NCBI GenBank assembly: GCA_043767805.1
Contig: JAYUGC010000091.1
Span: 1,467-65,466, forward strand
Length of the DNA stretch: 64,000 bases
Source of the DNA: Pseudomonadota bacterium
Lineage (GTDB): Bacteria; Bdellovibrionota; FAC87; UBA2466
Direction: 5' to 3'
The notes under the pieces were generated by a model, which saw nothing but the letters and a program-made list of their open reading frames with translations, was not told where the DNA came from and searched no databases. Shown here piece by piece: positions 1-16,576 of this stretch. The stretch's first letter is position 1. Each line of letters opens with the position of its first letter. The position numbers were made by a program, and so were the translations under genes.

Positions 1-1
1 A

Positions 2-256
2 ATCAGTTGGACCGTGAAGGGAAAAACCCAAACCCATCTGTTGCCCGGCTATTACGACAACGAGTACACGGCGAAGGCGGCGGCCAAGGCATTACTCAAG
101 GCCCGAGGGGTCGAGGTAACCGACTTCAAAGTGTCCGATGTTGGCTCGGTTTTCCAAATCGTCGTGGAAGACATGAAGGAGCCCTGCCGCGTGAGCCGAG
201 AAGGAATTCCCCAATCTCCTCGTATCGAAGGCACGATCAGGTCATTAACACACTAG
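2..256 (+). CDS. hypothetical protein, C-terminal fragment (frame open to left window edge)
   Basis: Frame is open from nt 2 to TAG at 254-256 (listed ORF starts at GTG 14). No recognisable motif. The tail overlaps the convergent gene end by 20 nt. Confidence 0.3.
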   Translation: MSWTVKGKTQTHLLPGYYDNEYTAKAAAKALLKARGVEVTDFKVSDVGSVFQIVVEDMKEPCRVSREGIPQSPRIEGTIRSLTH

Positions 257-1532
257 CGCCGAGCGCATCGGGTCCGAGAAGCGGCACGGGCAGGCTTTTC
301 GGCGCGACCTCTAGCACTCGCGGGCGAATGTTTTCGATGAAGTTCGCGATGGGCAGAGAATCCCCGTACATACCGGCGAACGCGTTCGCCCAGCTCGGAT
401 TCTCTTTGAGCGCTCCCATGAAGCGCAAATCGTCTTCGGTCGCGGCGGCCATCTTCGCTTGCCGGCCCACCCACTGATAATAGTCGTTCAAGTCGGCTTC
501 CCGCCGGCGGCCGTAGCTAGCTCTGGTAATGCTTTCCGCCTCTCGGCCAAGCATCGCGGTGAGCGTTTCCGCGGCAAGCTCCGCGTCCCGAAAGGCGTGG
601 GTCATGCCGATGGCCGTGCACTGATCTTTCGTGCAAGCCGCATCGCCGACGAGCATCCAGCCGGGCCCCGCAGGCTTTCGCTTGAACGCTTTCTGATCGA
701 CGACGCCGTAAAGCTTTTCTTCCTGCTTGGCCGTGCGCAGCGCTTCCCCGTAGCCGGGGTTCACGAAAGCCGCCGCCCGCAGGTAATTCTCCTGAATGTT
801 TTTCTTAAAAAGCGGCGCCCATTCTTTCGGGCCAAACACGAGCGTCATGTTCGCGTTGTAGTTGGTCGGCACTATGACGAGCGCCAGTCTCCCGCGCTTT
901 TCCATCTTCGCCGCCGGCACTTTGAATCCGCTGAAGTAAGTCCAATAGGCGAACGTGCACTCGGCATCAATCGCCGAGACTTCCGCCTGCACCCATTTGG
1001 CTACCGAGGAATTTCGCCCATCCGCGCCAACTACGTAGCGAGCCCGCTCTTCGACCGTAGTCCCGTCGGCAAGCTTCGCGCGAATGCCGACCACTCGGTC
1101 GTTCTCCCAGATCAGACCTTCCACCGGAAAGTTCGGCCGGAACTCGACACCGCACTCGACGGCAGCATCGACTAAAATCTTATCGAGCACGAGACGGCGG
1201 ACGGAAGCATACGTATTTATCGCACCATTGCCATCCCCATGGGCGCTGAGCAACCGATCGCGCACCGCTTCGACCGGCGTCTCGCACGAAAACTCGATGC
1301 CGTCTCTCGCGAAATCGACTCGCGTATCGGACGGCGTCTCCGCGAGCACCCGATCTAAAATTCCCCAACGGTTCAAGTAGGACATGCCCCGAGGCCAAAG
1401 GAAATGCGTCGAGAGAGTATCTGACGGAAAACTAGTGCGATCGACGACGAGGACTTTCGCGCCACGTTTGGCGAGATTGAGCGCGGTGGCCGATCCCGCG
1501 CAGCGTGCCCCGACTAGGATGACGTCGTACAC
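237..1532 (-). CDS. FAD-dependent oxidoreductase/monooxygenase (geranylgeranyl-reductase/aromatic-hydroxylase-like fold)
   Basis: 431 aa with N-terminal dinucleotide-binding motif VILVGARCAGSATALNLAKRG. GTG start directly abuts the stop of the upstream gene (1533). No WxWxIP halogenase motif seen. Confidence 0.75.
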   Translation of the reverse strand: MYDVILVGARCAGSATALNLAKRGAKVLVVDRTSFPSDTLSTHFLWPRGMSYLNRWGILDRVLAETPSDTRVDFARDGIEFSCETPVEAVRDRLLSAHGDGNGAINTYASVRRLVLDKILVDAAVECGVEFRPNFPVEGLIWENDRVVGIRAKLADGTTVEERARYVVGADGRNSSVAKWVQAEVSAIDAECTFAYWTYFSGFKVPAAKMEKRGRLALVIVPTNYNANMTLVFGPKEWAPLFKKNIQENYLRAAAFVNPGYGEALRTAKQEEKLYGVVDQKAFKRKPAGPGWMLVGDAACTKDQCTAIGMTHAFRDAELAAETLTAMLGREAESITRASYGRRREADLNDYYQWVGRQAKMAAATEDDLRFMGALKENPSWANAFAGMYGDSLPIANFIENIRPRVLEVAPKSLPVPLLGPDALGASVLMT

Positions 1533-4307
1533 TTAATCCACCTTGTCCGCGGTTTGGGGCACGGGAAGCTGTTTTCTATCGAGTTTGCCATTCGGGGTCA
1601 GAGGAAATTCCTTGAGGAACACGAAGTAGTCGGGAATCTGATATACGGCGAGCTTCTTCTCAAGCCGCAGCTTGAGTGCGCCACGATCTTGCGCGGGCCC
1701 CACGAAGTAGGCGACGAGGCAGGCCTCGGTGGGATGGGAGACGACCACGCAGTCTCCAGGCGCGCCCGAATCCCGCAGCACTCCCTCGACTTCAGCGGGC
1801 TCGATACGGTAGCCACGCACTTTGATTTGATGATCGAGACGGCCCACGATTTCGATATCGCCGTTTAGGTGATATCGGGCGCGGTCCCCGGTCTTGTAGA
1901 GCTTACGGCCTTCCAAAGTGATGAATCTCTGGGCCGTAAGCTGAGGCTGGCCGCGGTACCCGCGAGCGAGTCCCGCGCCGCCGATGTGAAGCTCTGCGCT
2001 CTCGCCGATAGGGACCGGCTTCAAGGACTCATCGAGGATTTGAATTTCGGTATTGTCGATGGGCCGGCCAACGGTGACTGCTTCCGTGGACTTATCCATT
2101 TCACCGGCCGTCGACCAAATCGTCGTCTCGGTGGGGCCGTAAAGATTCCAAAGCCGCACGCCGCGGTCCAAAAGATCTTTGCGTAAGCCGGGAGGCATGG
2201 CCTCTCCGCCACATAGCGCTTTGAATCCGGGCTTACCTTTCCAACCGCCGTCTAAAATCGAGCGCCAGGTAACGGGCGTGGTCTGGAGAATCGTCGCGCC
2301 GCTCTCTTCCACCGCTTTGGCCAAACGAACACCGTCAAAGACCACGGGCCGAGGCACGAGGATGAGCTTCGCGCCCATCATCCAGGTCAGGTACAAATCG
2401 AGGCCCGCGATGTCGAAGGAAAGCCCCGTCGGCGACAAAAGCACTTCTTTCTCGGTGAAGTCGAAGAGCCGCTGCATGCTGGATAGAAAATTGATGACCG
2501 GCTTGTGACTGACTTCCACGCCCTTCGGACGTCCCGTCGAGCCCGAGGTGTATAGCAGATACGCGAGGTTCTCAGGCCGCACGCCTGAATCGACCGAACT
2601 CGTCGGCAAAGCGCTCCAAGGCGCATCGGCTCTCGGAAACGGAATCGACTCTCCCGAAAATAGGTCCAAAGGCTCGGTCACGCTCTCGTGTACGAGGAGC
2701 ATCTTCGCTTTCGAATCGGTCACCATGTGCTCGAGCCGCTCGCGCGGGTACTGCGGATCGATGGGAACGTAGGCTGCGCCGGCTTTCAGTACGCCCAGCA
2801 CCGCGACCATGAGCTCCAAAGATCGCGGGATGTGTAGCCCGACTACATCCTCCGGCCCAACGCCGCGAGCTTTCAAATAATGGGCGAGCTGATTCGCCCG
2901 CGCTTCGAGCTCGGCGTAGGTGAGCTTCACGCCGTCTAAGTCGACGGCGACCGCATTGGGCACTCGATCGGCCTGTCTCTCGAATAACTGATGGAGGCAG
3001 ACCGTCTCGTCAAAGAGTCTGTGCGTTTCGTTCCAGGCCTTCAAAGGCAGCGGCGCGACTTCCATCTCATAGAGGCCGTTCTTCTCGAGAGCGCGTAAAA
3101 CGAGAAGATCTCGCTCTACTTGGTCCTTCTCGGGATAGACCAGCATTACAAACCCAGGGCAGGTGAAGAAATCGACTGTACGGCGCAGAGGGTAACCGGG
3201 CTTTGCCCGCATCCGCATTTCGTTGAAAGACGGTAAGGCTCGAATCACGGCTTCGCCAGGCACGCTCTTCACGATGCCTTCTTGCTCGGAAATTAAAGAC
3301 ACCGAGAGCGAGTACTGCTTCAGCACATAGGGCTTCGCGGCCTTACGATGGAAGGCTTCCGGGTCGACGTAGGCGTCGACGGTAAGATCGAGCTGGCCGT
3401 ACCCCACGCAAGCTTCATTGAGCTGAGGCGTGGTGATGCCGTTTAACCGCGTTCCCACTTCCACCAAGGCCGGCCCCCGGGGCGTCAGCATGATTTCCGC
3501 GTGTGAGGGCCCTTCGGTAATCTGAAGAGCGTCGAGGGCTTTGACGGCGTAATCGCGAAGCACGGTGCCTTCTTCGCTCGTCGCCTCGACGAGGCCGTCG
3601 CGGTCGTAAACGAAGTTGCGGCCGTTCACGCGAACTTTGTAATACTTCCAGATGGCCGTGCAGTGCGCTTTACCCGCGAGGCTCACCAAGTCCAAGGCGA
3701 ACTCGGGACCTTCCAAAAACTCTTGCGCGAGGACTTCTTCATTCAAAAGCCCAATCTGGTTTACTTTGCCGAGGATGCGATCGAAGGCGTCTCGAATCTC
3801 CGCCTCCCCGGTGCAAATGGCGACGCTGTCGGTGCCTGCGCTCTTTAAAGGCTTCAAGACCACTTTAGAAAAGCCGTGCTTAGCGGTCCACGCGAGAATG
3901 GTCTCGACGTCCGTCGACTTAATCTGCTCGGCGACGAGAAGACCCTTCGCCCGTACCGCCTCGATCATCTTGTACTTGTCCCGACGAGCGGCGCTGAGCT
4001 CAATGCCGTTCCCCGGAGTGCCTAGGCCATCGCTCAAGGCATCGGCAAGCTCGACGCCGGTTTCGGTACCCGCGACGACGCACACGGGATTAAAGAGCTT
4101 AAGGTTCGCAAGCAATTTCGGGAGATCCCCGTCGAAAGCAAAGTGCGCTTCGTAGTCCGCGGGGCGATAGGTAATATTGAGGAGCGCCCAAATCTCGGGC
4201 GTGCTTTGTACGTGAATCGAAGTGTAGCCCCGGCCCTTGAACTCGCCCGGAAGGAAATTTCCAGCGGAGTAGCCGTCGACAATGACCGCGTATTTTTTCT
4301 TGCTCAC
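1533..4307 (-). CDS. ATP-grasp (L-amino-acid-ligase-like) :: adenylation (AMP-binding) didomain protein without carrier domain
   Basis: 924 aa. Residues ~1-420 are ATP-grasp-like. The C-terminal half carries NRPS-type A-domain cores LAYLLYTSGSTGRPKGV (A3), YGPTETT (A5), YKTGDRARY (A7), GRLDHQIKVRGYRIEPAEVE (A8) and PLTPNGKLDRK (A10). The ORF ends 12 aa after A10. GTGA start/stop overlap with the MATE gene. Confidence 0.85.
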   Translation of the reverse strand: MSKKKYAVIVDGYSAGNFLPGEFKGRGYTSIHVQSTPEIWALLNITYRPADYEAHFAFDGDLPKLLANLKLFNPVCVVAGTETGVELADALSDGLGTPGNGIELSAARRDKYKMIEAVRAKGLLVAEQIKSTDVETILAWTAKHGFSKVVLKPLKSAGTDSVAICTGEAEIRDAFDRILGKVNQIGLLNEEVLAQEFLEGPEFALDLVSLAGKAHCTAIWKYYKVRVNGRNFVYDRDGLVEATSEEGTVLRDYAVKALDALQITEGPSHAEIMLTPRGPALVEVGTRLNGITTPQLNEACVGYGQLDLTVDAYVDPEAFHRKAAKPYVLKQYSLSVSLISEQEGIVKSVPGEAVIRALPSFNEMRMRAKPGYPLRRTVDFFTCPGFVMLVYPEKDQVERDLLVLRALEKNGLYEMEVAPLPLKAWNETHRLFDETVCLHQLFERQADRVPNAVAVDLDGVKLTYAELEARANQLAHYLKARGVGPEDVVGLHIPRSLELMVAVLGVLKAGAAYVPIDPQYPRERLEHMVTDSKAKMLLVHESVTEPLDLFSGESIPFPRADAPWSALPTSSVDSGVRPENLAYLLYTSGSTGRPKGVEVSHKPVINFLSSMQRLFDFTEKEVLLSPTGLSFDIAGLDLYLTWMMGAKLILVPRPVVFDGVRLAKAVEESGATILQTTPVTWRSILDGGWKGKPGFKALCGGEAMPPGLRKDLLDRGVRLWNLYGPTETTIWSTAGEMDKSTEAVTVGRPIDNTEIQILDESLKPVPIGESAELHIGGAGLARGYRGQPQLTAQRFITLEGRKLYKTGDRARYHLNGDIEIVGRLDHQIKVRGYRIEPAEVEGVLRDSGAPGDCVVVSHPTEACLVAYFVGPAQDRGALKLRLEKKLAVYQIPDYFVFLKEFPLTPNGKLDRKQLPVPQTADKVD

Positions 4308-5713
4308 GCTAAAGCCTCATTCACTTTCGTCCCTTGTACCCAGTTCCAGAGCACATAGGCGGCCACCGCGAAAATTCCGGCGGTAAGCCCTCCCCAGAAG
4401 CCCAGTACGCCGAGCCCGAGGGAGAAACAAAGGTAGTACCCGATCGGTAGCCCCAGAATCCAGTACCCCAGAAAATTTCCCACCATGGCGGCGCGGGTAT
4501 TGCCCAGGCCGCGCAAAGCCCCGCACCCGACGCTTTGAATGCCGTCCGCCACTTGAAAGACCGCGGCCAGCATCAAGAGCCGTCGCCCGAGCTCGATGAC
4601 GCCCGCGTCTTGGCTGAAAAGACCGACGATGGGCGCCCCTAGCGTGAACATAATCACCGCGAAGCAAGCCATGACGCTCGCGCCAAGCCCAATCGACGTC
4701 CAACCGGAGAGCCGCGCCTGAACGGGATTTCCTTCTCCTAACGCTTGGCCCACCAGCACCGCGGTGGAGGCGGCGATGCCGTAGGGAACCATGTAAGTGA
4801 GACCCGCGAGATTTAAGACGATGGTGTGGGCCGCAAGTGAAATCGCGCCCAAAGGGACGATGAGCGTCGTCGCGAGCGAAAAGACGCCTGACTCAAAGAG
4901 GAGTTGCCCGCCGGCGGGAAGGCCCACTTGGAGAAGCCGCTTCATTCCCCTGGTATCAAAGGCGAGCGAGGCTTTGCTGAGCCCCAGCTCGAGACGCTTA
5001 TCTCTATGAAGCGCATAGACCAGGATGACTGCCGCCATGAGCGTGCGGCTAATCGTCGTCGCCACGCCCGCCCCGGCCACCCCGAACGCTTTCGCGCCCA
5101 GATTCCCGAAGATGAGCACCCAGTTGAGATAGGCGTTCAAAGCGACGGCGACGATGGTGATCACCGTTCCCGCATGCACGTTGCTCATGGCCTGCAGGTA
5201 CTGACGAAACGAGATGAAAACGAGAAAGGGGAGAAGACTCCAGCTCAACGTGCTCAAGAAGGCTCGCGCCGGCACGGCGATCGTGGGATCGAAGCCGAGA
5301 GCGGGAAGATTGCCCGCGACGATTTGAAGCAGGAGCACGAGCGGCAATCCCAGCAGAAAAGAGAGATAAACCGCCTGCACCAGCCAGTAGTGGCACTCCT
5401 TCACGTCTTTGCGGCCGTAGGCATGGGATACGAGGTAATCGAGCCCAAAAAGCGTACCGGCGCTAAACAGCGTGAAAACGTAAAAGAGAGCGGAGCCCAG
5501 GCCCGCGCCGCCGATGGCCTCGGGGCCGAGCTTTCCCAGCATGTACGTATCGATGAGGATCATCACCATCTGCCCGACCTGGCCGAGAGCGAGCGGGGTG
5601 GCCATGGCGATAGTCTTCGGCAGCTGACCTTTTACCGCGCGAGACCATTCTGAGTACGTCACAGCAGAACGTCTTAGCAGAGAGTTTGGTGCCGTGCGAA
5701 AAAACAGTTCCAA
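4304..5713 (-). CDS. MATE family efflux transporter
   Basis: 469-aa polytopic hydrophobic protein with MATE/NorM-like N-terminus (PKTIAMATPLALGQVGQMVMILIDTYMLGKLG). Start uncertain: TTG 5713, GTG 5662 or ATG 5605. Confidence 0.85.
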   Translation of the reverse strand: MELFFRTAPNSLLRRSAVTYSEWSRAVKGQLPKTIAMATPLALGQVGQMVMILIDTYMLGKLGPEAIGGAGLGSALFYVFTLFSAGTLFGLDYLVSHAYGRKDVKECHYWLVQAVYLSFLLGLPLVLLLQIVAGNLPALGFDPTIAVPARAFLSTLSWSLLPFLVFISFRQYLQAMSNVHAGTVITIVAVALNAYLNWVLIFGNLGAKAFGVAGAGVATTISRTLMAAVILVYALHRDKRLELGLSKASLAFDTRGMKRLLQVGLPAGGQLLFESGVFSLATTLIVPLGAISLAAHTIVLNLAGLTYMVPYGIAASTAVLVGQALGEGNPVQARLSGWTSIGLGASVMACFAVIMFTLGAPIVGLFSQDAGVIELGRRLLMLAAVFQVADGIQSVGCGALRGLGNTRAAMVGNFLGYWILGLPIGYYLCFSLGLGVLGFWGGLTAGIFAVAAYVLWNWVQGTKVNEALA

Positions 5714-5769
5714 AGGCTAAACGACTCGGCTTATATGCTGGGCTCGCTCCCAACCCTCTAGGTGGTGCC

Positions 5770-6549
5770 ATGAACCCGGGCCTTTCCAAAAAAACTAAGT
5801 TGATTCTCGGGTCGGTGCTGGTCACCTATCTCATTCTGATGGCGGTGAAGGCTTGGGTACCCGAGACCGCTCCGGTCATCGGAATTCTCATCTGGCTCCA
5901 AGAGATCGGCCTGAACTTGGGCGCTCTCTATTTAGTCTCCCTTCACCTGCGCAAGAAGGATCCCGCCGATACCGCTTTTGATAGATGCGCTTATCAATGT
6001 CTCGCGGCTTCCCTGGTCTTTACACTGACGGCCTCTACCACCTACCAAATCCTCTCTCGCGGGTTTGGCTGGACGCTTGAAAAAGCGATGGGCACGCCGG
6101 TCGAACTAGCCATCAACATTCCCTACATGTCTTTCTTCGCGTTCGGCTTGGTCGCTCTTTGGCGCGGGCACAACGGCTACGCCCCCAAAGCGAACAAAAC
6201 CGCGCTGCTTTCTCTCGTACTCTTCGTCATGACCGTTCTGGCGTTTCGCCACGGACTGGCCGCGACCGAGAACCCGCTTCAGAACCGCACCATCCATTGG
6301 ATGTGCTTCGCTTTGGAGTGCGCGATCCTTACGGTTGGCGTAATCAACGCCTTAGCTCCGCCGCTAAGCCTTCGGTTCGTGAGCCTAGCTTACGTCTGCA
6401 TCGCGGCTTCGGGTTATCTCTTTCAGATTTATGAAATCTACCCGACTATCCCCTATCTCGATTTCCCCATCGATGCGTCCTGGACGCTGGGACAACTGCT
6501 TCTCGTCTCGGGCTTGAGCCTCACTGGCTCGGAGAAACTCAGGGCATGA
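5770..6549 (+). CDS. polytopic membrane protein, unknown function
   Basis: ATG at 5770 inside the listed ORF avoids overlap with the divergent MATE gene. Several hydrophobic helices. ATGA overlap with the next gene. Confidence 0.5.
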   Translation: MNPGLSKKTKLILGSVLVTYLILMAVKAWVPETAPVIGILIWLQEIGLNLGALYLVSLHLRKKDPADTAFDRCAYQCLAASLVFTLTASTTYQILSRGFGWTLEKAMGTPVELAINIPYMSFFAFGLVALWRGHNGYAPKANKTALLSLVLFVMTVLAFRHGLAATENPLQNRTIHWMCFALECAILTVGVINALAPPLSLRFVSLAYVCIAASGYLFQIYEIYPTIPYLDFPIDASWTLGQLLLVSGLSLTGSEKLRA

Positions 6550-7916
6550 CCGGAAAGCCCGCCACCGAGACGAAACACCTCGCCATCGTCGGCGCCGGCC
6601 CGAAGGCCATCGCCATCGCGGCGAAGGCCTCCGTCTTGAAGCGGCTGGGCTTCAAAGTTCCGGACATCACCATTTTCGAGCGCGGCCACATCGCCCACCA
6701 TTGGCGAGCGGAGTCCGGTTTTACGAACGGCAAGCTCACTCTCGGTACCGGTCCCGACAAAGACGTCGGCTTTCCGTATTATTCTTTCTGCTGGGGCGAC
6801 GCCGCGAACCGCAAGATCAACTACCTCATTCAGGAGTTCTCCTGGCAGAACTACCTGATTGCAACTCACGAGTTCGGCGATTGGGTCGATCGCGGTAAGC
6901 CCGCCCCCACCCACCACCATTGGGCAAGATATCTCGAATGGGTCTTTAAGCGCGTCGAAAAGAACGTGACTCTCGTGCAAGCGAACCTAAGCGAGGCCGA
7001 GGTTCAGGGCGACCACTGGAAACTGACCTCCGTCGATAAGTCGGGACAGAAAACGGAGACCCTCGCCGATGGCCTCGTCTTCACCGGCCCGGGCGAGCCT
7101 CGCTTTTCGGGAGGCTCCCTTCCGGTCCACGAGCGCATTCTCCGCATGGAGACCTTTTGGCTGAGATACAAAGAATATACGTCGCTCGAAAAAGCGTCCG
7201 TCGCCCTGGTCGGCACGGGGGAGACGGCGGCGACGATCGCGGTGGCGATGGCGCAATCAAGCCCCAACGTGCGCGTCGACATCATCTCGCCCAGCGCAAT
7301 GGCCTACTCGCGCGGCGAAAGCTACGTCGAGAACCATATTTACACCGACCCGTTCCAGGGTAACTGGCTGCACCTCACGCGGGAGGACCGGCGCAATTTC
7401 ATCAACCGCACCGATCGCGGCGTTTTCTCCATCTCCACCAAGCAGGAGATGGACAGGCTTAAGAACATCGAAATCGTGCCGGGCCTTTTCACGGGCATCA
7501 CGGTGGACTCGCTCGATCAGCTGGTCGTGAACATCGCCTACAACTCAGGCTCCGAAACGCGGCTCTACGACATGCTCATTCTCTCGGTGGGCTTCGATCA
7601 CCTGGAGTTCGTCAAACGCGTGCTCACGAAAAAGGCACAAGACCATCTGGTCTCGAAGGCGGCCTTACCCGATCTCTCGACCCCCAACGTGGAAGACAAG
7701 ATTGATCGCTACCTAGCGGTCGACGGCATGCGGCCCTATTTGCATCTGCCCATGCTAGCGGGGATGAGCCAAGGGCCGGGCTTCGCCAACTTGAGCTGCC
7801 TCGGGAGATTGTCGGATCATATTTTGTCTCGTTACGTTCCTCCGCAATCGGCGCTCCTCGCCGAGCATCCCATTCTTAGGGGCGTGAACGATTTTTCGAG
7901 TCATGACGGGTTCTGA
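6546..7916 (+). CDS. FAD/NADPH-dependent amine N-hydroxylase-like protein (IucD/PvdA/SidA class; Spb38-like candidate)
   Basis: 456 aa. FAD motif AIVGAGPKAIAIAAKA (cf. IucD GVGTGPFNLSIAAL), second dinucleotide motif VALVGTGETAATIAVAMA, and a distal DMLILSVGF (cf. ATGY region). The spacing matches lysine/ornithine N-monooxygenases. Confidence 0.55.
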   Translation: MTGKPATETKHLAIVGAGPKAIAIAAKASVLKRLGFKVPDITIFERGHIAHHWRAESGFTNGKLTLGTGPDKDVGFPYYSFCWGDAANRKINYLIQEFSWQNYLIATHEFGDWVDRGKPAPTHHHWARYLEWVFKRVEKNVTLVQANLSEAEVQGDHWKLTSVDKSGQKTETLADGLVFTGPGEPRFSGGSLPVHERILRMETFWLRYKEYTSLEKASVALVGTGETAATIAVAMAQSSPNVRVDIISPSAMAYSRGESYVENHIYTDPFQGNWLHLTREDRRNFINRTDRGVFSISTKQEMDRLKNIEIVPGLFTGITVDSLDQLVVNIAYNSGSETRLYDMLILSVGFDHLEFVKRVLTKKAQDHLVSKAALPDLSTPNVEDKIDRYLAVDGMRPYLHLPMLAGMSQGPGFANLSCLGRLSDHILSRYVPPQSALLAEHPILRGVNDFSSHDGF

Positions 7917-9012
7917 CATCATCGTCCTCGGCGCGGGTGGCCTGGGAAGCGCCATTCTTCAACACCTAGCCAAGGCGGGAGCGAACGTTCTCGGCATCGA
8001 TCGCCATCATCCCCCTCACCGGCACGGCAGTAGCCACGGCAACACTCGGCTCATTCGCAAGGCTTACTTCGAGGATACGCGCTACATCCCGCTTCTCGAA
8101 CGCAGCTACGAATTGTGGCGAAACTTGGAGCAGGCGTCGGGAAAGACCCTTTACCGAGAGACCGGCCTCTTAATTCTGCGAGACACCGAAACGGGTTTTA
8201 CGGCAAAAGCGCTGGAGAACGCAAAAGCCAATAACGTCGAGATGGACCGGCTCGACGCTTCCGAGCTAAAAGCGCGCTTTCCTCAGTTCGAAGTGAGCCC
8301 GGACGTGCACGGGCTCTTTGAAAGACAGGCGGGCTACTTGAACGTCGAGGCTTCCGTCCAAGCCCATCTCGAGCAAGCCAAACGCTCGGGCGCCCACTTT
8401 GCCTTCAATGAGACGGTCCAATCGTGGAGCGTGCGCCACGGCAAAGTCACCGTCCGCACCGACAAGAAGAAGTACACCGCGAAACAGCTCGTTCTCGCTC
8501 CCGGCGCGTGGACCGCGGGCCTTCTTAAAGACTTCGGCATGTCTTTCACCGTGAGACGGGGCGTGCAGTTCTGGTTCGCGGGCCTTCCCAAGCACCAGAC
8601 TATTCCCTGCTTTGGCTTTGCGGTCGGAGACACTTTCATTTACGGCTTTCCGCAAATTCCGGGAGTAGGGCTAAAAGCCGCGGACTACGCGCCTTCCGAC
8701 GTCTTGAAAGTCCCCGAGGATCAAACCTCCGGCTTTCGGCCCGATGAGCTTTTGCCGGTGACCTCCCGGCTACAGAGATTTCTACCCGACGTAAGCCCCG
8801 TGCCGATTGCTTCGAGCCCTTGCCTCTATTCCATCACCCGGGACGAGAACTTCTTGATCGACCGCCACCCCGAGCACTCGGAAGTCTTTCTCGCGGCGGG
8901 AGATTCCGGCCATGCGTTTAAATTCGCGCCGGTCATCGGAGAGATGGTGACGGGGATGGCCCTGGGCTCGTCGCCCAAGTTTGATTTGAGCTTCTTGGCC
9001 TACCGAAGCTGA
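7903..9012 (+). CDS. monomeric sarcosine oxidase / N-methyltryptophan oxidase family FAD amine oxidase
   Basis: 369 aa. IIVLGAGGLGSAILQHLAKAG then HGSSHGNTRLIRKAYFED, typical of the MSOX/SolA family. 14-nt overlap with the upstream gene. Confidence 0.75.
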   Translation: MTGSDIIVLGAGGLGSAILQHLAKAGANVLGIDRHHPPHRHGSSHGNTRLIRKAYFEDTRYIPLLERSYELWRNLEQASGKTLYRETGLLILRDTETGFTAKALENAKANNVEMDRLDASELKARFPQFEVSPDVHGLFERQAGYLNVEASVQAHLEQAKRSGAHFAFNETVQSWSVRHGKVTVRTDKKKYTAKQLVLAPGAWTAGLLKDFGMSFTVRRGVQFWFAGLPKHQTIPCFGFAVGDTFIYGFPQIPGVGLKAADYAPSDVLKVPEDQTSGFRPDELLPVTSRLQRFLPDVSPVPIASSPCLYSITRDENFLIDRHPEHSEVFLAAGDSGHAFKFAPVIGEMVTGMALGSSPKFDLSFLAYRS

Positions 9013-10424
9013 TTGAGAACCGCGACAAGCGTGTCCACGTGCTCTTTTTGCGTCGCGAAGTTAGAGATGCCCGCCCGCAATACGTCCTGCCCCGTGTGAT
9101 AGAGCTTGGTCGGCGTAATCCAGGTCTTGCCCGTTTCCCCGACACGTTTCGCGAACGTTTTGACGTCGAGAGAGGGCTGCTTCGGGTCGACGAAGCAAAC
9201 GACCGGAAGCGCCGTCTCGTTCACGACTTTCCATCCGTTTACTTCGAGCTTTTCTCGCAAGTAGCCGCCCATCTCAATCTGATGGCGGAGGACTTTTTGA
9301 TAGCCCTCTTCGCCGTGCACCGCGAGCGTCAGAAAGAGCTTCAGGCCCGTAAAGCGACGCGACCACTGCAGGGATTGCTTGTAGGGCTCCGCGTACTCGG
9401 CAGCGTGCGTGCCAGGAGGCATGTAGTGGCTCGCCTCGACACTAAAGGTCTCTTCCAAAATGTTCGCGTGAGGCGTGAAGAAGATCCCCGCGCCCATTGG
9501 CACCGACAGCCACTTATGCGCATCGAGAGTCAGAGAATCGGTTTTCTCGACGCCCGCGAAAAGCGCGCGGTGCTCAGGTAAAAGAATGGCCGCCCCACCC
9601 CAAGCCGCATCGGCATGGAGCCAAAGGCCGTGGCGTTTCGCCACTTCCGCTATCGGGTCCAAAGCATCAAAGACGCCCGCGCTGGTGCTTCCGAGAGTCG
9701 CGACCACGAATAGCGGCAACTTCCCCGCCGCCTTATCAATCGATATCTGTTTATCGAGAGCCGCCACATCGAGCTGAAGCCGCGCATCGACCGGAAGCTC
9801 CACCACGCTCTTCGTGCCTAGCCCGCAGACGCGGGCCGCACGCAAAAACGAATGATGGGTTTCCTTCGAAGTGTAGAGGACCGGCCTATATGTCCCGACC
9901 CCGTCCGTGCGGAAATCGGGCAGCTTTGCCGCCAACGCACAAAGAACCGCCGTATAGTTCGCTTCGGTACCACCCGTGGTGAAGCAGCCTCTTACGGAAC
10001 CGGACGGATACCCGAACTTCATCCCGAAATACCGCACGAGATGGTTCTCCATCTCGATGCAAACCTTGGCGCTCGCCGTGGAGGCAAGCTGGGGGTTGAA
10101 GCTCGCGACCAAGAGGTCGGCCGCGACTCCCATGGTGGAAGGGCTCGGGTTGAACACCCCGAAGTAGGCGGGGTGACTCGTATGAAGAAGCCCCTCTTTA
10201 AGGAGCGTTCCGACCTGGGCCACGACCGAGGCGGACCTTTGAGGAGCCTGGAAATCTTGGGTCTTTAGATAAGCGGAGAGGGCGGCGCTTTGGTCGGAAG
10301 GCGCGACGGGAAGACGGGCGACCTCACCGAGGTGGCTTTCCATGAGAGCAGAGAGCTGACCCCAAAGCGCTTGCCGCTCTTTTTGGGGGAGCAAGAGACC
10401 GAATCCTTCCCGAAACGGGTCCAT
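9000..10424 (-). CDS. group II pyridoxal-phosphate-dependent amino-acid decarboxylase
   Basis: 474 aa. PLP-lysine motif SLTLDAHKWLSVPMGAG and TTGGTEANY. Length and layout match aromatic-amino-acid/DABA/glutamate decarboxylases. Confidence 0.85.
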   Translation of the reverse strand: MDPFREGFGLLLPQKERQALWGQLSALMESHLGEVARLPVAPSDQSAALSAYLKTQDFQAPQRSASVVAQVGTLLKEGLLHTSHPAYFGVFNPSPSTMGVAADLLVASFNPQLASTASAKVCIEMENHLVRYFGMKFGYPSGSVRGCFTTGGTEANYTAVLCALAAKLPDFRTDGVGTYRPVLYTSKETHHSFLRAARVCGLGTKSVVELPVDARLQLDVAALDKQISIDKAAGKLPLFVVATLGSTSAGVFDALDPIAEVAKRHGLWLHADAAWGGAAILLPEHRALFAGVEKTDSLTLDAHKWLSVPMGAGIFFTPHANILEETFSVEASHYMPPGTHAAEYAEPYKQSLQWSRRFTGLKLFLTLAVHGEEGYQKVLRHQIEMGGYLREKLEVNGWKVVNETALPVVCFVDPKQPSLDVKTFAKRVGETGKTWITPTKLYHTGQDVLRAGISNFATQKEHVDTLVAVLNQLR

Positions 10425-10504
10425 TTCCTTACTCCCTGGGTTATTGCGTTAGAGGGCGGCTCCGAGTTAAGTTGCGGTGCAACAAAGCTAGGGCGGTTCT
10501 AAAC

Positions 10505-12436
10505 ATGATCATTCAGAAGATCAACCCTTCTCAGCTCGAGAAGGCCTACAACATTCGCTGTCAGGGACTCTACCCTTTGAAACGCGAGCATTTCTTTGCT
10601 CCGTTCGGCTCCGCCTATTGCGAGGTCGAGCCCCAAGGTTTTTCCGCGCGCCACAATCACCACGAGAACGAAACGTTCTACATTCTCCAAGGTTCGGGCA
10701 CGATGGAGATCAACGGCGAGAAGGAAAACGTCTCGGCCGGCGACGTCATCTTGATCCCCGCGCTCTCTCACCACCGGCTGGACAACACGTCGACCACCGA
10801 GCGTTTGAACTTCGTCTCCGTCTACTGGAGTGCGCCGCTCGTTCCCGAGATTCCGAAACACCTTCTCGTCATCCCGGCGCCACCCACGCCGAACGGCCCG
10901 CTTCATCTAGGTCATCTTTCAGGACCGTATTTCGCGGCCGATGTGTACACGCGCTACGCGACTTCTCGCGGCTCGAATGCGTTTTATGCGATGGGTACGG
11001 ACGACAACCAGTGTTACGTCGCGGCCAAGGGACGCTTGCTCGGTCTCACGGGAGAAGAAGTCGTCGATAAGTTCACGCCCCTGATCACGAGCGCCCTGGA
11101 AGACTTCGGCTGCAACGTGACGACGTTCTTACATCCCCTCGGCCAGGGCGATTACACGCGCTTCGTGCAAGAGACCTTCGTGACCCTCATGGAAAGAGGA
11201 GTCATCGAGCTTCGGACGGTACCGACGCCTTTCTGTGAAGCCACCCAGCAGTTTCTCTACGGCGCTCAAGTCACGGGCAAATGCCCCACTTGTAAGCAGC
11301 TGACCAGCGGCCAAAGTTGCGAAGCGTGCGGCGCCTACAACGACGCTTGGGACCTCATCGAGCCCAAGTCGAATGTGGGTAAGGGCCCGGTCGTGCTGAA
11401 AGACGCCGAGAAATACTATTTCCCGCTTTCGAAATACGCCGACAAACTGAGAACGATTCTCGCCCAAGTGTCCATGCATCCGAAGTTGCGCGCGTTCTAC
11501 GACGCGTACCTGGACCGTGGGCTTCCGGATGTCGCCGTCACGCAGTTTGGCGAATGGGGCGTGCCCTGCCCGCTCATGGACGGCCAAGTCCTCTACGAAT
11601 GGTTCGAGATGGCGGGAAGCTACTTCCACCTTTCCGATCAGGTTTGCGAAACGAAAGGCGAACCCGCTTTTTGGCAAGACAAGCTCGCGGGCGTCGTCGA
11701 GTGCTTCGGCTTCGACAATAGTTTCTTCTACGGCTTGCTCGTTCCGGCTTTGATGAGCGAGATCGACCCGTCGTCGCATCCGCCGAAGGCGTTTCTTTTT
11801 AATTTCTTCTATAACCTAGACGGCAAGAAGTTCTCGACGAGCCGGGGCCACGCGGTCTGGGCCCACGAGATTCTCGCAACAGTGCCTCCGGATGCGATTC
11901 GCTTTTACCTCGCCAAAACCCGCCCCGAGGACATCGAGACCAACTTCAATTTGAATGAGATGACCGCCTTCGTCGAGCGGGAGCTGGTCGGCCGGTGGGA
12001 ACCGTTCCTGGCGGCAGTCACGACCGGCACCGTTCCGGCGTTCACGGATTCTCTCGCCTGGGACCACGAGCGGTTTCTGTCGCGCGTGAACCGCATCGTC
12101 GAAGAAATTCATCAGCACTACAACGTCGACCGCTTCTCTCTGAACGCGGCCGCCGAGGGCCTGATCGAGCTCTTCAACACCGTCTCGCTCTTTCATGCTC
12201 GGTTTGATGCCCTCGATCCGCGGGCCCGCAACCTGACGGCGCAGGCCTTGCGCGCTTGGGCGACGCTTCTGACTCCCCTCATGCCGGAGTTCGGCGCGAA
12301 AGTCGCCAAAGCGATGAGCGCCTCGGGCAAAGCCACTTTGATTACTGAGCTTCGTACCGACTCTTCTATCGATGAGCTCCCCAAGCGCGACTTGAGCGAC
12401 GCCTTGGCCAAATTGAAAGCTTTCACTCATGGATAA
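10505..12436 (+). CDS. cupin :: methionyl-tRNA-synthetase-like didomain protein (candidate hydrazine synthetase, Spb40/Tri28/PyrN type)
   Basis: N-terminal cupin motifs RHNHHENETFYILQG and GDVILIPALSHHRLDN. Class I aaRS core follows: HIGH-type PNGPLHLGH, MetRS zinc knuckle CPTCK-x8-CEACG and KMSKS-type KFSTSRG. ATG at 10505 (the track opens at TTG 10472). Confidence 0.8.
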   Translation: MIIQKINPSQLEKAYNIRCQGLYPLKREHFFAPFGSAYCEVEPQGFSARHNHHENETFYILQGSGTMEINGEKENVSAGDVILIPALSHHRLDNTSTTERLNFVSVYWSAPLVPEIPKHLLVIPAPPTPNGPLHLGHLSGPYFAADVYTRYATSRGSNAFYAMGTDDNQCYVAAKGRLLGLTGEEVVDKFTPLITSALEDFGCNVTTFLHPLGQGDYTRFVQETFVTLMERGVIELRTVPTPFCEATQQFLYGAQVTGKCPTCKQLTSGQSCEACGAYNDAWDLIEPKSNVGKGPVVLKDAEKYYFPLSKYADKLRTILAQVSMHPKLRAFYDAYLDRGLPDVAVTQFGEWGVPCPLMDGQVLYEWFEMAGSYFHLSDQVCETKGEPAFWQDKLAGVVECFGFDNSFFYGLLVPALMSEIDPSSHPPKAFLFNFFYNLDGKKFSTSRGHAVWAHEILATVPPDAIRFYLAKTRPEDIETNFNLNEMTAFVERELVGRWEPFLAAVTTGTVPAFTDSLAWDHERFLSRVNRIVEEIHQHYNVDRFSLNAAAEGLIELFNTVSLFHARFDALDPRARNLTAQALRAWATLLTPLMPEFGAKVAKAMSASGKATLITELRTDSSIDELPKRDLSDALAKLKAFTHG

Positions 12437-13499
12437 GTTCGACGCCATCGTCATTGGAGGCGGCATCGTCGGCGCCTCCGCCCTTCACCAGCTGACCCGG
12501 CAGGGAAAGACCAGAAACCTCCTTCTCGAAAAGAAAGCGGGCTTTGGCCGCGGCGCCACCGGTTCCTGGGGCTCACTCGTTCGCATGTTTCACTTGAGCC
12601 TTGCGACCACGACGTCGGCCGCAAAAAGCGTTCCCTTTTATCTCGATTTCAAAAAGCACACCGGCGAGGACTTCAACTGGACCCGCACCGGATCGCTCTA
12701 TTTCCTGAAAGAACCTGAGTTGCCCCAGTTCGAGGCGCATTTCGAACAGCTTAGGAGATCAGGTCTCGAGTTCGAACTGATCCGAGCAAGAGAAGGCAAA
12801 CAACGCTTCCAAGATTTTTCCTGGTACGAGAATGATGTCGCGGTCTATGAGCCAAACGCCGGTGTGGCTTGCCCCTGGAGCACGACCGAATCGTTTCTGC
12901 ATGCGGCCGAGAAGCTCGGCGCCACCTCCAAGCTCAATACGGAAGTCACCGAAGTTCTGTCTCAGGGCGACAAAATCAGGGGCGTCCGGACGTCTAACGG
13001 CGCCGAGTACGAGTGCGACCTGCTGGTAGTCGCCTCCGGCGTTTGGACCAATGCCTTACTGGAAAAGATCGGCACGACTTCCAGCGCCTTTTCGAAGTCG
13101 CTTCAGCTTAATCGGTTTTGCCGGCACCACGGCGACGTCTCTCATCCCTTCTTCATCGATAAGGCGTCGCAGACTTTCGGCCATCCCTCGCAAAGCGGCT
13201 CCTTCATCGGCGGCTACTTGGGAGGCGAAGCCAAGAACGGGGATCATTCCGTCGAGCACGTGAGCCTTCTCGATGCAAATGAAGCGAAGCAAAAGATTTC
13301 CCAGCGCATCCCTTGGGTCAAGAATGCTACGCTAGAGGGTGGCATCCGCGCTTTGGAAGCCTACACGAACACCAACGTGGGCATCGTCGAACGGTCCGCC
13401 AGTTACGACAACCTCATCGTCACTACCGGATGGAGCTGCTCGGGCTTCACTTTGGCGCCGGTCGCGGGCCAGCGGGTGGCCGAGGCCGCTCTGCACTAA
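12429..13499 (+). CDS. DAO-family FAD-dependent oxidoreductase (Spb39-like candidate)
   Basis: 356 aa with N-terminal FDAIVIGGGIVGASALHQL. Length is that of glycine/D-amino-acid-oxidase-like proteins. 8-nt overlap with the cupin::MetRS-like gene. Confidence 0.75.
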   Translation: MDKFDAIVIGGGIVGASALHQLTRQGKTRNLLLEKKAGFGRGATGSWGSLVRMFHLSLATTTSAAKSVPFYLDFKKHTGEDFNWTRTGSLYFLKEPELPQFEAHFEQLRRSGLEFELIRAREGKQRFQDFSWYENDVAVYEPNAGVACPWSTTESFLHAAEKLGATSKLNTEVTEVLSQGDKIRGVRTSNGAEYECDLLVVASGVWTNALLEKIGTTSSAFSKSLQLNRFCRHHGDVSHPFFIDKASQTFGHPSQSGSFIGGYLGGEAKNGDHSVEHVSLLDANEAKQKISQRIPWVKNATLEGGIRALEAYTNTNVGIVERSASYDNLIVTTGWSCSGFTLAPVAGQRVAEAALH

Positions 13500-15937: not shown

Positions 15938-16379
15938 CGCGATCCAAAATTCCGTCCGAACAGATCAATACGTTTTGATTCTCGCCGTAATGACAAGCTC
16001 CACCGCCGCCGGAGTTTGGATTTCCCCCGCAAGACCGATTGCCTCCGCAGGAAGAAGCCACATTGGTTCGGGCGCCGCAATTACCCAGGCCGCCACAATT
16101 AGAGGGCTGACCTACCGAAAAGGATTGGCCACACGGTCGGCCGCCACAAGGCGAGGGCATGGAGCTAAATCCACCGCCGCCACAAGGCCGGCCGCCGCAA
16201 GGGCTAGGATTGCTCATGAAAACCGGGCCCTGATTCCTGAAGACCGGAGCTTGCTTGATGACTCTCCCTCGTTGTCCGCAACCCACGCAGCCGCCGGCGA
16301 GGCCTGAGTCACTCAAGCAAAAAGCGAAAACTATGAAAAGGAGACGGAAGGCGACAGAAGTCGCGAGATATCGGCCCAT
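15639..16379 (-). CDS. secreted Cys/Gly-rich repeat protein (probably the N-terminal part of the protease gene)
   Basis: ATG 16379 gives signal peptide MGRYLATSVAFRLLFIVFAFCLS. Repeated PSPCGGRPCG / CGG-x-x-CGG units follow. The last ~30 codons look out of frame and overlap the protease ORF in another frame. Confidence 0.55.
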   Translation of the reverse strand: MGRYLATSVAFRLLFIVFAFCLSDSGLAGGCVGCGQRGRVIKQAPVFRNQGPVFMSNPSPCGGRPCGGGGFSSMPSPCGGRPCGQSFSVGQPSNCGGLGNCGARTNVASSCGGNRSCGGNPNSGGGGACHYGENQNVLICSDGILDRGADNIFRMRKGGAAPATQAAPGNFGGVQQAPALGLNGSIQGGSHTDSGNTGAPLASQGSTSQPQGEGQFFVRRAEKRECGGYCSPAYGFGKHAFFSLRA

Positions 16380-16416
16380 CACACACCCCCAAAAAACCCC
16401 AGTACCGTGTAGACAA

Positions 16417-16432
16417 TGCAAAAGAAGCACCA
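16417..16432 (-). promoter_or_regulatory. sigma-54-type promoter motif (TGGTGC-N5-TTGCA)
   Basis: Minus strand reads TGGTGCTTCTTTTGCA with correct GG/GC spacing and a perfect -12 TTGCA, about 38 nt upstream of ATG 16379. Confidence 0.4.
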
Positions 16433-16576
16433 GAAAAAACTAAATGCTTTCAAGGCCCGGGCGTGAAGACTTTGTTCGATTGAAAGCAACCCCGCCTACT
16501 TCTTGGACAGGGCGAAGTCTCAAAAATCCTTACGTTAATTCTTTTAGAATACGGGCGAATCTGAGACCCTCTCCGC

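What the first reader, a model, noticed from the sequence alone, without database searches (positions are those of the whole stretch)
1533..4307. ATP-grasp ligase fused to a stand-alone adenylation domain, with no thiolation or condensation partner
One 924-aa polypeptide joins an L-amino-acid-ligase-like ATP-grasp domain (ADP-forming) to a complete A domain with cores A3-A10 (AMP-forming). It ends 12 residues after A10. No PCP/ACP-like ORF is visible anywhere in the window. The nearest precedent I know uses separate proteins of these two classes: DdaG, an AMP-forming ligase, and DdaF, an ATP-grasp, in dapdiamide biosynthesis. These form two successive amide bonds without carrier proteins. A fused version next to a hydrazine cassette suggests two consecutive ATP-dependent N-acylations, possibly hydrazide formation. 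The gene is coupled to a MATE exporter (GTGA overlap) and abuts a FAD oxidoreductase gene.
Basis: partly seen in the sequence, partly recalled or inferred. Interest (0 to 1): 0.75.

Follow-up and report, generated by a model that had tools for sequence, protein, structure and literature searches.

The report
Fused two-ligase enzyme in hydrazine cluster
One 924-residue protein joins two different ATP-using ligases that are separate neighbouring genes in related gene clusters; it sits in an uncharacterised, carrier-free pathway that probably builds a small peptide-like molecule around a nitrogen-nitrogen building block.

Summary
Window 1533-4307 (-) is one uninterrupted 924-aa ORF. Residues 1-416 are a DdaF/TabS-type L-amino-acid-ligase ATP-grasp with intact catalytic residues. 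Residues 426-924 are a complete NRPS-type adenylation domain that stops 13 residues after A10. Its specificity code is DILQLGLIWK, which I recall as the canonical glycine code. No carrier or MbtH protein is detectable in six frames of the window or of the nine syntenic loci scanned.

New points:
- The gene belongs to a conserved, uncharacterised hydrazine cluster family, seen here in ten related loci (nine distinct).
- In the closest relatives, L010/L011 and L012, the ATP-grasp (417 aa) and the A protein (515 aa) are separate, overlapping, translationally coupled genes. The window is an in-frame fusion of the two.
- The fusion is unique. It is absent from 80 metagenome loci and from the 150 best ATP-grasp representatives of a 1.84-billion-protein library.
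- The hydrazine synthetase pocket (APDQWMNY) matches the glycine-type motif TPDQWMNH at 6 of 8 positions. This points to hydrazinoacetate, a glycine analogue that fits the A-domain code.

Most likely function: two successive carrier-independent ligations, a hydrazide or amide bond followed by an amide bond. It is a new variant of known logic (DdaF/DdaG, E-64, FuzC, Tri29-31). Only one contig supports the fusion.

The parts
1533..4307 (-). Whole fused ORF, 924 aa plus stop: ATP-grasp ligase joined to an adenylation domain
3060..4307 (-). ATP-grasp L-amino-acid-ligase half (residues 1-416), PRK07206/DdaF/TabS type
   Evidence: Pfam and NCBIfam hits. PDB entry 30vh, 'L-amino acid ligase', matches at E 2e-70 over residues 2-409. 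It is 59% identical to the stand-alone 417-aa ATP-grasp of L010. K152, H269, E271, E283 and R287 are invariant in alignment A1.
3033..3059 (-). Junction (residues 417-425, MEVAPLPLK). In the relatives this is where the ATP-grasp stop codon and the nested ATG of the A gene lie.
   Evidence: the window reads through in one frame. L010 ends LYELEAQ* and L012 ends MYELE*, each with the A-gene ATG inside TATGAG in another frame.
1536..3032 (-). NRPS-type adenylation domain (residues 426-924), motifs A1-A10, code DILQLGLIWK, no T domain
   Evidence: It is 50-52% identical to the stand-alone 515/521-aa A proteins of L010 and L008.
4304..5713 (-). MatE exporter; its stop codon overlaps the GTG start of the fusion (GTGA)
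   Evidence: The same MatE-then-ATP-grasp order occurs in L010 and L012; in L010 the two genes share their boundary base (coordinates 1913-3277 and 3277-4530).
237..1532 (-). FAD_binding_3 flavoprotein (monooxygenase or halogenase-like); its start abuts the stop of the fusion
   Evidence: Orthologues at 56-57% identity in L010 and L012.
5686..6549 (+). Hydrophobic protein, probably membrane-embedded, with no family match; conserved in L010
   Evidence: 37% identity to the L010 277-aa protein.
6546..7916 (+). Lys/Orn-type flavin N-monooxygenase (hydrazine cassette)
   Evidence: 56-61% identity to L008 and L010.
7903..9012 (+). FAD oxidase of the sarcosine / N-methyltryptophan oxidase family
   Evidence: NF008425: 375 bits against a cut-off of 257.
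9000..10424 (-). Group II PLP-dependent decarboxylase, the likely source of an amine
   Evidence: Conserved in seven of the related loci (L008, L010/L011, L012, L013, L014, L017; a fragment in L009); not present in the 22-kb stretch around L016.
10472..12436 (+). Cupin-MetRS-like hydrazine synthetase, pocket motif APDQWMNY
12429..13499 (+). FAD oxidase whose start overlaps the end of the hydrazine synthetase gene (same position as Spb39/Tri27/AzsM)

Best explanation
The 924-aa protein is a bifunctional, carrier-protein-independent ligase. It arose by in-frame fusion of two adjacent, translationally coupled genes of a conserved hydrazine-type biosynthetic cluster.

Proposed pathway:
1. Inferred by homology to Spb38-40/Tri26-28: the N-monooxygenase, the cupin-MetRS hydrazine synthetase and the adjoining FAD oxidase make hydrazinoacetate, or a very similar small hydrazino acid, from lysine and glycine.
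2. Inferred: the N-terminal ATP-grasp half activates a carboxylate as an acyl phosphate (ADP-forming) and couples it to a nitrogen nucleophile. The most likely nucleophile is the distal nitrogen of the hydrazino acid, which gives a hydrazide, as FuzC does. This would play the part of the N'-acylation that Tri31 performs before Tri29 acts.
3. Inferred: the C-terminal adenylation half has a glycine-type pocket. It adenylates the glycine-like carboxylate of that intermediate, or glycine itself.
4. Inferred: because no thiolation domain exists, the acyl-AMP is captured directly by an amine, in the manner of an amide-bond synthetase. The amine is plausibly the product of the cluster's PLP-dependent decarboxylase.
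5. Inferred: the product is exported by the co-transcribed MatE pump.

Shown by tool results: the domain architecture, intact motifs, the Gly-type code, absence of carriers, synteny with unfused orthologues, and uniqueness of the fusion. Substrates, the order of steps and the amide-synthetase mode are inferred.
For: Architecture and intact catalytic motifs.

Orthologous clusters:
- L010/L011 and L012 carry ATP-grasp and A as separate, overlapping genes in the same order. They are 59% and 50% identical to the two halves.
- L008 carries a stand-alone 521-aa A protein.
- The two full-length orthologous A proteins (L010, L008) end just after A10. The code is DILQLGLIWK or DILQLGVIWK. The GrsA control returned DAWTIAAICK.

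No carrier: no PCP was found in the window or in L008-L019, and the positive controls were detected.

Hydrazine synthetase pocket: APDQWMNY in all family members. My mapping of the pocket positions recovered the published Gly motif TPDQWMNH from a Bacillus homologue. The motifs come from PMC12376268 and bioRxiv 10.1101/2025.08.22.671884.

Precedents:
- FuzC, an ATP-grasp that forms a hydrazide (PMC13149037).
- Tri31/Tri29/Tri30, which acylate and then adenylate hydrazinoacetate (bioRxiv 10.1101/2021.05.12.443849; PMC10445470).
- ATP-grasp plus amide-bond synthetase, with a cluster-encoded PLP-dependent decarboxylase thought to supply the amine, in E-64; and DdaF/DdaG (PMC12568646).

Operon structure: the MatE gene overlaps the start of the fusion gene (GTGA), which suggests co-translation.
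Against: - There is no biochemical evidence.
- The A domain is of NRPS descent, 45-47% identical to C-A-T modules. It could still serve a carrier encoded elsewhere in the genome.
- Sister clusters (L013, L014, L016, L017, L019) lack the A gene, so its step is accessory and its substrate may not be the hydrazino acid at all.
- The GNAT present in seven of the related loci is absent from the window, so the pathway here may differ.
- The Gly assignment of the hydrazine synthetase rests on 6 of 8 pocket residues.
- I could not obtain Tri29/AzsP sequences to test whether they are related to this A domain.
- The fused form is seen on one contig only.
Confidence: 0.45

Rival explanations
1. The A half simply activates free glycine and N-glycylates an amine or hydrazine nitrogen of the intermediate. 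This would be a carrier-free aminoacyl transfer that functionally replaces the GNAT acylation missing from this cluster. The ATP-grasp half adds another residue independently.
For: The code DILQLGLIWK is, to my knowledge, the canonical glycine code, and it keeps D235 for a free alpha-amino group. The GNAT is present in seven of the related loci but absent from the window.
Against: L010 and L012 carry both a GNAT and the A gene, so the A gene is not a simple replacement. The pocket code cannot distinguish glycine from hydrazinoacetate.
Confidence: 0.25
2. The A half is a conventional loading enzyme for a free-standing carrier protein (type II NRPS, or Tri29/Tri30-like) encoded outside the cluster. 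The pathway would then be thiotemplated after all.
For: The domain is of NRPS type with all motifs that a thiolation-competent domain has. The homologous logic in triacsin and azaserine uses an ACP (PMC10445470).
Against: No PCP or ACP was found in 64 kb of window or in nine syntenic loci from different samples (the L010/L011 pair being near-identical). L010 covers the whole cluster. No condensation, thioesterase, ketosynthase or PPTase gene is in the cluster.
Confidence: 0.15
3. The fusion is a sequencing or assembly artefact. A small indel error between the conserved TATGAG and the AWNET segment would have joined two genes that are separate in the organism, as in L010 and L012.
For: The fused protein is a singleton: 1 member and 1 contig. 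The unfused arrangement is seen in three or more contigs. No other fusion was found among 80 loci or the top 150 representatives.
Against: - Frame 0 is open throughout.
- The segment PLKAWNETHRLFDETVCLHQ is homologous to the N-terminus of the L008 A protein (NAWNATTRSYSSDCCIHT).
- The alternative frame starting at the nested ATG stops after 9 codons. An error would therefore have to fall within about 24 bases that contain no homopolymer run.
- Even if the genes were unfused, the biology is unchanged: coupled, carrier-free ATP-grasp and A genes.
Confidence: 0.1

Closest known systems
DdaF (ATP-grasp) and DdaG (AMP-forming ligase) of dapdiamide biosynthesis
   Same: Two successive carrier-free amide bonds are made by one ADP-forming and one AMP-forming ligase. 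The ATP-grasp half is a true homologue of DdaF (NCBIfam DdaF model: 231 bits over residues 3-410).
   Different: DdaF and DdaG are separate proteins. The DdaF equivalog cut-off (840) is not reached. To my knowledge DdaG is not an NRPS-type A domain. Dapdiamide biosynthesis involves no hydrazine chemistry.
Tri29/Tri30/Tri31 (also AzsP/Q/S and Spb41-43) hydrazinoacetate activation module, with Tri26-28 (Spb38-40)
   Same: Both have an N-monooxygenase, a cupin-MetRS hydrazine synthetase with a Gly-like pocket, a FAD oxidase and an AMP-forming ligase of about 515 aa. The relatives also have a GNAT.
   Different: No ACP is present anywhere. An ATP-grasp ligase and a PLP decarboxylase are added. The window has no GNAT. 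Sequence relatedness of this A domain to Tri29 was not tested.
FuzC/FuzH ATP-grasp ligases of fuscazine biosynthesis (PMC13149037)
   Same: ATP-grasp ligases sit next to a hydrazine cassette. FuzC uses a hydrazine nitrogen as nucleophile to form a hydrazide without a thioester.
   Different: The Fuz cluster uses two ATP-grasp enzymes and no A domain. Its hydrazine synthetase is split and specific for Arg or hydroxy-Arg.
E-64 pathway Cp1B (ATP-grasp) and Cp1D (amide-bond synthetase), with a PLP decarboxylase (PMC12568646)
   Same: An ATP-grasp step is followed by an ANL-type amide-bond synthetase that couples to a decarboxylase-derived amine. The pathway is independent of NRPS machinery.
   Different: The E-64 pathway is fungal, its enzymes are unrelated in sequence, they are separate proteins, and no N-N bond is made.
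Stand-alone NRPS A domains that form amide bonds directly (streptothricin ORF19; recalled from memory)
   Same: An NRPS-type A domain without a T domain acts as an amide synthetase.
   Different: The substrate is beta-lysine rather than a glycine-like acid, and the domain is not fused to an ATP-grasp.

Membership tests
ATP-grasp L-amino-acid ligase (PRK07206 / TabS-DdaF type) | ATP-grasp domain plus LAL C-terminal domain, both above curated thresholds | tested here: met
   ATP-grasp_4: 32.8 against 27. LAL_C2: 29.9 against 29.4. NF005543: 420.6 against 302. PDB 'L-amino acid ligase' 30vh: E 2e-70, full length.
ATP-grasp L-amino-acid ligase (PRK07206 / TabS-DdaF type) | Conserved nucleotide-, Mg- and acyl-phosphate-binding residues (KP...G loop, QEFLEG hinge, H-x-E, E-x-G-x-R) | tested here: met
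   VVLKPLKSAGTDSV, LAQEFLEGPEF, PSHAEIM and VEVGTRLNG are present. K152, H269, E271, E283 and R287 are invariant in A1.
DdaF (dapdiamide A synthase) equivalog | Score above the equivalog cut-off of NF041595 | tested here: not met
   230.8 bits against a cut-off of 840. It is a homologue, not an orthologue.
NRPS adenylation domain | AMP-binding and AMP-binding_C domains, TIGR01733, and core motifs A1-A10 including the A10 lysine | tested here: met
   (TIGR01733: 395.7 against 317.4). PDB top hits are NRPS A domains.
NRPS module (thiotemplated) | A cognate thiolation (PP-binding) domain or protein, and a condensation domain | tested here: not met
   The protein ends 13 residues after A10. The PCP profile found nothing in the window or in L008-L019, and positive controls were detected. 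No Condensation hit appeared in the Pfam scans.
Amide-bond synthetase (carrier-independent ANL enzyme such as McbA, DdaG, Cp1D) | Direct aminolysis of the acyl-adenylate by a free amine | not testable with these tools
   This is an activity-defined class. The only available evidence is contextual: no carrier, and a PLP decarboxylase in the cluster.
Cupin/MetRS hydrazine cassette (Spb38-40 / Tri26-28 type) | Flavin N-monooxygenase, cupin-MetRS-like synthetase and FAD oxidase encoded together | tested here: met
   Syntenic in seven of the related loci (L008, L010/L011, L012, L013, L014, L099); in L016 only the synthetase and its oxidase are seen. PyrN-C structure 9vq4 matches at E 4e-70.
Glycine-utilising hydrazine synthetase (hydrazinoacetate-forming) | Eight-residue pocket motif TPDQWMNH (Spb40/AzsN) | tested here: inconclusive
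   The window has APDQWMNY, a 6 of 8 match. The mapping was validated by recovering TPDQWMNH from a Bacillus homologue. No characterised enzyme is known to me with this exact motif.
Tri29-31 / AzsPQS hydrazinoacetate loading module | AMP-ligase, ACP and N-acyltransferase together | tested here: not met
   An AMP-ligase-like A domain is present. An ACP is absent everywhere. The GNAT is absent from the window but present in relatives.

The most novel reading that the evidence does not exclude
An NRPS glycine A domain has been cut loose from its module and turned into a carrier-independent amide or hydrazide synthetase. In this organism it is welded to an L-amino-acid-ligase ATP-grasp. A single polypeptide would then perform an ADP-forming and an AMP-forming ligation in sequence on hydrazinoacetate, producing a new class of N-N-containing pseudopeptide from uncultured Proteobacteria.
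Probability: 0.35. Interest if true: 0.65.

Novelty: new variant of a known kind. Interest (0 to 1): 0.5.

Why it matters
If the reading is right, the protein is a natural two-in-one amide/hydrazide ligase that needs no carrier protein. That is attractive for biocatalytic synthesis of hydrazide-containing peptides.

The cluster family is seen here only on metagenomic and MAG contigs of uncultured bacteria, those that carry a name being labelled proteobacterial. It would be a carrier-free alternative to the known Tri/Azs/Spb route for using hydrazinoacetate. The fusion also works as a Rosetta-stone link: it indicates that the ATP-grasp and A steps act on the same intermediate.

The underlying logic (ATP-grasp plus AMP-forming ligase; ATP-grasp hydrazide formation) is already published. 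The surprise is therefore moderate rather than fundamental.

Tried and rejected
- Exact-sequence lookup of the fused protein's contig, to see beyond the window, returned nothing on record.
- The GTDB genome scan found only distant relatives. The best one, L001, lies in an unrelated context.
- The closest long ATP-grasp hits turned out to be tandem double ATP-grasp proteins. The two whose contigs were examined lie among eukaryotic-type genes, so they say nothing about this pathway.
- The 287-aa neighbour with no family match was considered as a hidden carrier or ligase. It is a hydrophobic, probably membrane-embedded protein.
- I tried to obtain a Tri29/AzsP-type AMP-ligase for direct comparison, through plasmid records and an actinobacterial hydrazine-synthetase locus. 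Neither locus contains that module.
- A single-sequence AlphaFold model of the ATP-grasp half was unusable (pLDDT 35), so no fold search was run.
- The source of PDB entry 30vh could not be identified from the literature.
- A glutamate-type specificity for the hydrazine synthetase was rejected: PyrN R390 and R425 correspond to S and Y here.
- The full-length word-indexed search missed the unfused orthologues that clearly exist. I therefore did not rely on it for uniqueness and used the exhaustive representative search instead.
Full report
**Observation**

Window 1533-4307 (-) is a single 924-codon ORF that starts with GTG and has no internal stop.

Pfam places four features on it:
- ATP-grasp_4 and ATP-grasp_3 at residues 110-293.
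- The L-amino-acid-ligase C-terminal domain LAL_C2 at residues 338-400.
- AMP-binding at residues 442-784 (294 bits).
- AMP-binding_C at residues 839-908.

NCBIfam agrees. The PRK07206 ATP-grasp subfamily scores 420.6 bits against a cut-off of 302. The amino-acid adenylation domain TIGR01733 scores 395.7 against 317.4.

All A-domain core motifs are legible in the translation. The protein ends NGKLDRKQLPVPQTADKVD*, 13 residues after A10.

The gene's GTG start overlaps the TGA stop of the upstream MatE gene (GTGA). Its TAA stop is followed at once by the GTG start of a FAD_binding_3 gene.

The ATP-grasp residues expected for catalysis are present, and they are invariant among seven family members.

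**No carrier protein**

I built a PCP profile from 63 PCP segments of the NRPS hits. I searched all six-frame stop-to-stop fragments of the window with HMMER filters off. The best hit had E = 0.41.

The same profile detected the PCP domains of NRPS loci L002 and L021/L022, so it works. It found nothing in the nine related cluster loci scanned (L008-L017, L019).

At the window's left edge the cluster ends. Downstream of the FAD_binding_3 gene the minus strand is closed, and a convergent plus-strand ORF runs in from outside the window.

**What the gene belongs to**

The neighbours are:
- a Lys/Orn-type N-monooxygenase;
- two DAO-family FAD oxidases;
- a group II PLP-dependent decarboxylase;
- a cupin-MetRS-like hydrazine synthetase.

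I searched with the hydrazine synthetase and looked up the contigs of its closest relatives, which are 45-67% identical. This revealed a conserved cluster family.

| Locus | Content |
|---|---|
| L010/L011 (two samples) | FAD_binding_3, GNAT, MatE, ATP-grasp (417 aa), AMP-binding (515 aa), N-monooxygenase, DAO, PLP decarboxylase, hydrazine synthetase, DAO |
| L012 | The same set, up to the contig end |
| L008 | A stand-alone 521-aa AMP-binding protein with the cassette |
| L013, L014, L016, L017 | Cassette genes with the ATP-grasp (plus a GNAT in L013, L014 and L016); no AMP-binding gene |
| L019 | A 2-kb contig on which the orthologous ATP-grasp is followed by a convergent gene, not by an A gene |

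Most of the window's cluster genes are 50-67% identical to their counterparts in these loci.

**The fusion**

Residues 1-416 of the window protein are 59% identical to the stand-alone ATP-grasp of L010. Residues 426-918 are 50% identical to the stand-alone A protein that follows it in another frame.

In L010 the ATP-grasp ends ...LYELEAQ*. The A gene starts at an ATG nested in the TAT-GAG codons, so the two genes overlap by 20 nt. L012 is built the same way (...MYELE*).

The window keeps CTCTATGAG but then reads on in the same frame...LYE-MEVAPLPLKAWNETHRLFDETVCLHQLF....

The segment after the junction is homologous to the N-terminus of the L008 A protein (NAWNATTRSYSSDCCIHT). The alternative frame from the nested ATG closes after nine codons. 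The fusion is therefore explained by a small frame-changing indel in the poorly conserved leader of the A gene.

An assembly error would have to fall in about 24 bases that contain no homopolymer run. I rate that at about 10%. Only one contig carries the sequence, so it cannot be excluded.

**Uniqueness**

- None of 80 metagenome loci that encode relatives of the ATP-grasp has an A domain fused to it. Where an A domain occurs, it lies more than 1 kb away.
- An exhaustive HMMER search of 1.84 billion cluster representatives with the ATP-grasp half gave 6005 relatives. Among the best 150, which reach down to about 31-35% identity, only the window's own protein contains an A domain.
- This ATP-grasp family does fuse readily with other partners: a second ATP-grasp, EamA and MFS transporters, an AurF-like N-oxygenase, methyltransferases and DUF192. 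A fusion with a pathway neighbour is thus in character for the family, but this partner is new.

**Substrate clues**

I aligned the A domain with the GrsA PheA segment, recalled from memory. The control returned GrsA's own code, DAWTIAAICK.

- The window and L010 give D-I-L-Q-L-G-L-I-W-K. L008 gives DILQLGVIWK. Position 278 is Q by ungapped numbering, in the conserved LLQTTP segment.
- To my knowledge DILQLGLIWK is the canonical glycine code.
- The two full-length orthologous A proteins (L010, L008) also stop just after A10.

For the hydrazine synthetase I mapped the published eight-residue pocket motif through the PyrN-C structure alignment (residue numbers from bioRxiv 10.1101/2025.08.22.671884; motifs from PMC12376268).

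- The window and every family member read APDQWMNY.
- A Bacillus plasmid homologue run through the same mapping gave exactly the published glycine motif TPDQWMNH. This validates the mapping.
- APDQWMNY shares 6 of 8 positions with the Gly motif, 3 of 8 with the Thr motif and 2 of 8 with the Glu motif.
- The two arginines that bind glutamate in PyrN correspond to Ser and Tyr here.

The most economical reading is that the cassette makes hydrazinoacetate. Hydrazinoacetate is N-aminoglycine, so it fits a glycine-type A-domain pocket.

**Mechanism proposed**

In triacsin, azaserine and s56-p1 biosynthesis, hydrazinoacetate is handled in three steps (bioRxiv 10.1101/2021.05.12.443849; PMC10445470):
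1. A GNAT (Tri31/AzsS) acylates its distal nitrogen.
2. An AMP-ligase of about 57 kDa (Tri29/AzsP) adenylates it.
3. The ligase loads it on an ACP (Tri30/AzsQ).

The family studied here has the cassette, a GNAT in most members and an AMP-forming enzyme of the same size. It has no ACP, and it adds an ATP-grasp ligase and a PLP decarboxylase.

Published precedents cover the added parts:
- FuzC, an ATP-grasp next to a hydrazine cassette, uses the hydrazine nitrogen to form a hydrazide (PMC13149037).
- DdaF/DdaG and the E-64 enzymes Cp1B/Cp1D make two amide bonds without carriers. In E-64 the second bond goes to an amine that the cluster's own PLP-dependent decarboxylase is thought to supply (PMC12568646).

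I therefore propose this sequence:
1. The ATP-grasp half acylates a nitrogen of the hydrazino acid, most likely the distal one.
2. The A half adenylates the glycine-like carboxylate.
3. An amine, plausibly from the cluster's decarboxylase, attacks the adenylate directly.
4. MatE exports the product.

The domain order in the fusion matches this reaction order.

Architecture, motifs, codes, absence of carriers and synteny are shown by tool results. Substrates, step order and the amide-synthetase mode are inferred. My confidence in this explanation is about 0.45.

**Rivals**

- The A half activates free glycine and N-glycylates the intermediate (0.25).
- The A half loads a carrier encoded elsewhere in the genome (0.15). 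No carrier appears in any of the nine syntenic loci scanned, and no C, TE, KS or PPTase genes are present.
- The fusion is an assembly artefact (0.10). Even then, the coupled carrier-free gene pair would remain.

**Comparison and novelty**

- The ATP-grasp half is a member of the PRK07206 L-amino-acid-ligase subfamily. It is a homologue of DdaF but not an orthologue (231 bits against an 840 cut-off).
- The A half is a bona fide NRPS-type A domain, but it is not part of an NRPS module, because the T and C tests fail.
- The cassette is of the Spb38-40/Tri26-28 kind. The Tri29-31 loading module is not reproduced, because the ACP is absent.

The finding is a new variant of known kinds: a previously unseen domain fusion inside an uncharacterised, carrier-free branch of hydrazine biosynthesis.

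It would interest natural-product enzymologists and biocatalysis groups.

Noticed in passing
P0007, P0009, P0011, P0020, P0027, P0029, P0043; loci L006, L007: The highest-scoring ATP-grasp relatives in the first protein search are tandem double ATP-grasp (LAL-LAL) proteins of 900-1000 aa. P0027 (L006) and the shorter 681-aa relative P0060 (L007) lie on contigs whose neighbours are eukaryotic genes (kinesin, Alg6/Alg8, CDC48, WD40 giants). A eukaryotic lineage appears to carry duplicated bacterial-type L-amino-acid ligases.
   Followed up: partly
P0268, P0288, P0317, P0367 (EamA); P0351 (MFS); P0330 (AurF-like); P0370, P0378 (methyltransferase); P0325, P0357 (DUF192): The same ATP-grasp family is fused to many different partners, including transporters and an AurF-type diiron N-oxygenase. 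These fusions may mark further NRPS-independent pathways.
   Followed up: partly
window 1-13499 compared with L010, L012, L008, L013, L014, L016: A GNAT acetyltransferase gene is present in seven of the related loci (L008, L010/L011, L012, L013, L014, L016) but has no detectable counterpart anywhere in the 64-kb window (tblastn).
   Followed up: partly
window 7903-9012 (+): The first FAD oxidase scores above the curated cut-off of the N-methyl-L-tryptophan oxidase (SolA) model: 375 bits against 257. It is conserved next to the N-monooxygenase or close by in six of the related loci. Its role is unexplained: second oxidation to a hydrazone, cleavage of a secondary amine, or lysine recycling.
   Followed up: no
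window 5686-6549 (+) and L010 12988-13821 (-): A hydrophobic protein of about 280 aa, probably membrane-embedded, with no Pfam or NCBIfam match. The two copies are 37% identical. It may act in immunity or transport.
   Followed up: partly
window 14087-19651: Just beyond the cassette lie a 616-aa ORF with no family match, a poly-gamma-glutamate hydrolase-like gene (16577-17260), a class I methyltransferase (17244-18125) and a DAO-Rieske fusion protein (18122-19651). Whether these belong to the cluster is unknown. They have no counterparts in the related loci examined.
   Followed up: no
window 19679-28665: Aromatic amino-acid and shikimate genes (prephenate dehydratase, 3-dehydroquinate synthase, chorismate synthase) follow. 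This looks like ordinary chromosomal context rather than a plasmid or mobile island.
   Followed up: no
L099 1350-8719: A MAG labelled Nanopelagicales has a hydrazine synthetase with the same pocket motif, APDQWMNY. It sits next to a FemAB-like (aminoacyl-tRNA-dependent) transferase gene instead of an ATP-grasp. This may be a third way of acylating the same hydrazino acid.
   Followed up: no
L097 (Bacillus toyonensis plasmid p246, NZ_CP036016.1 187636-207609): Plasmids of the Bacillus cereus group carry a cassette with the exact published glycine-type pocket TPDQWMNH. It is accompanied by an ATP-grasp, arginase, GNAT, MFS transporter and a separate cupin gene. 36 Bacillus plasmid records match.
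   Followed up: no
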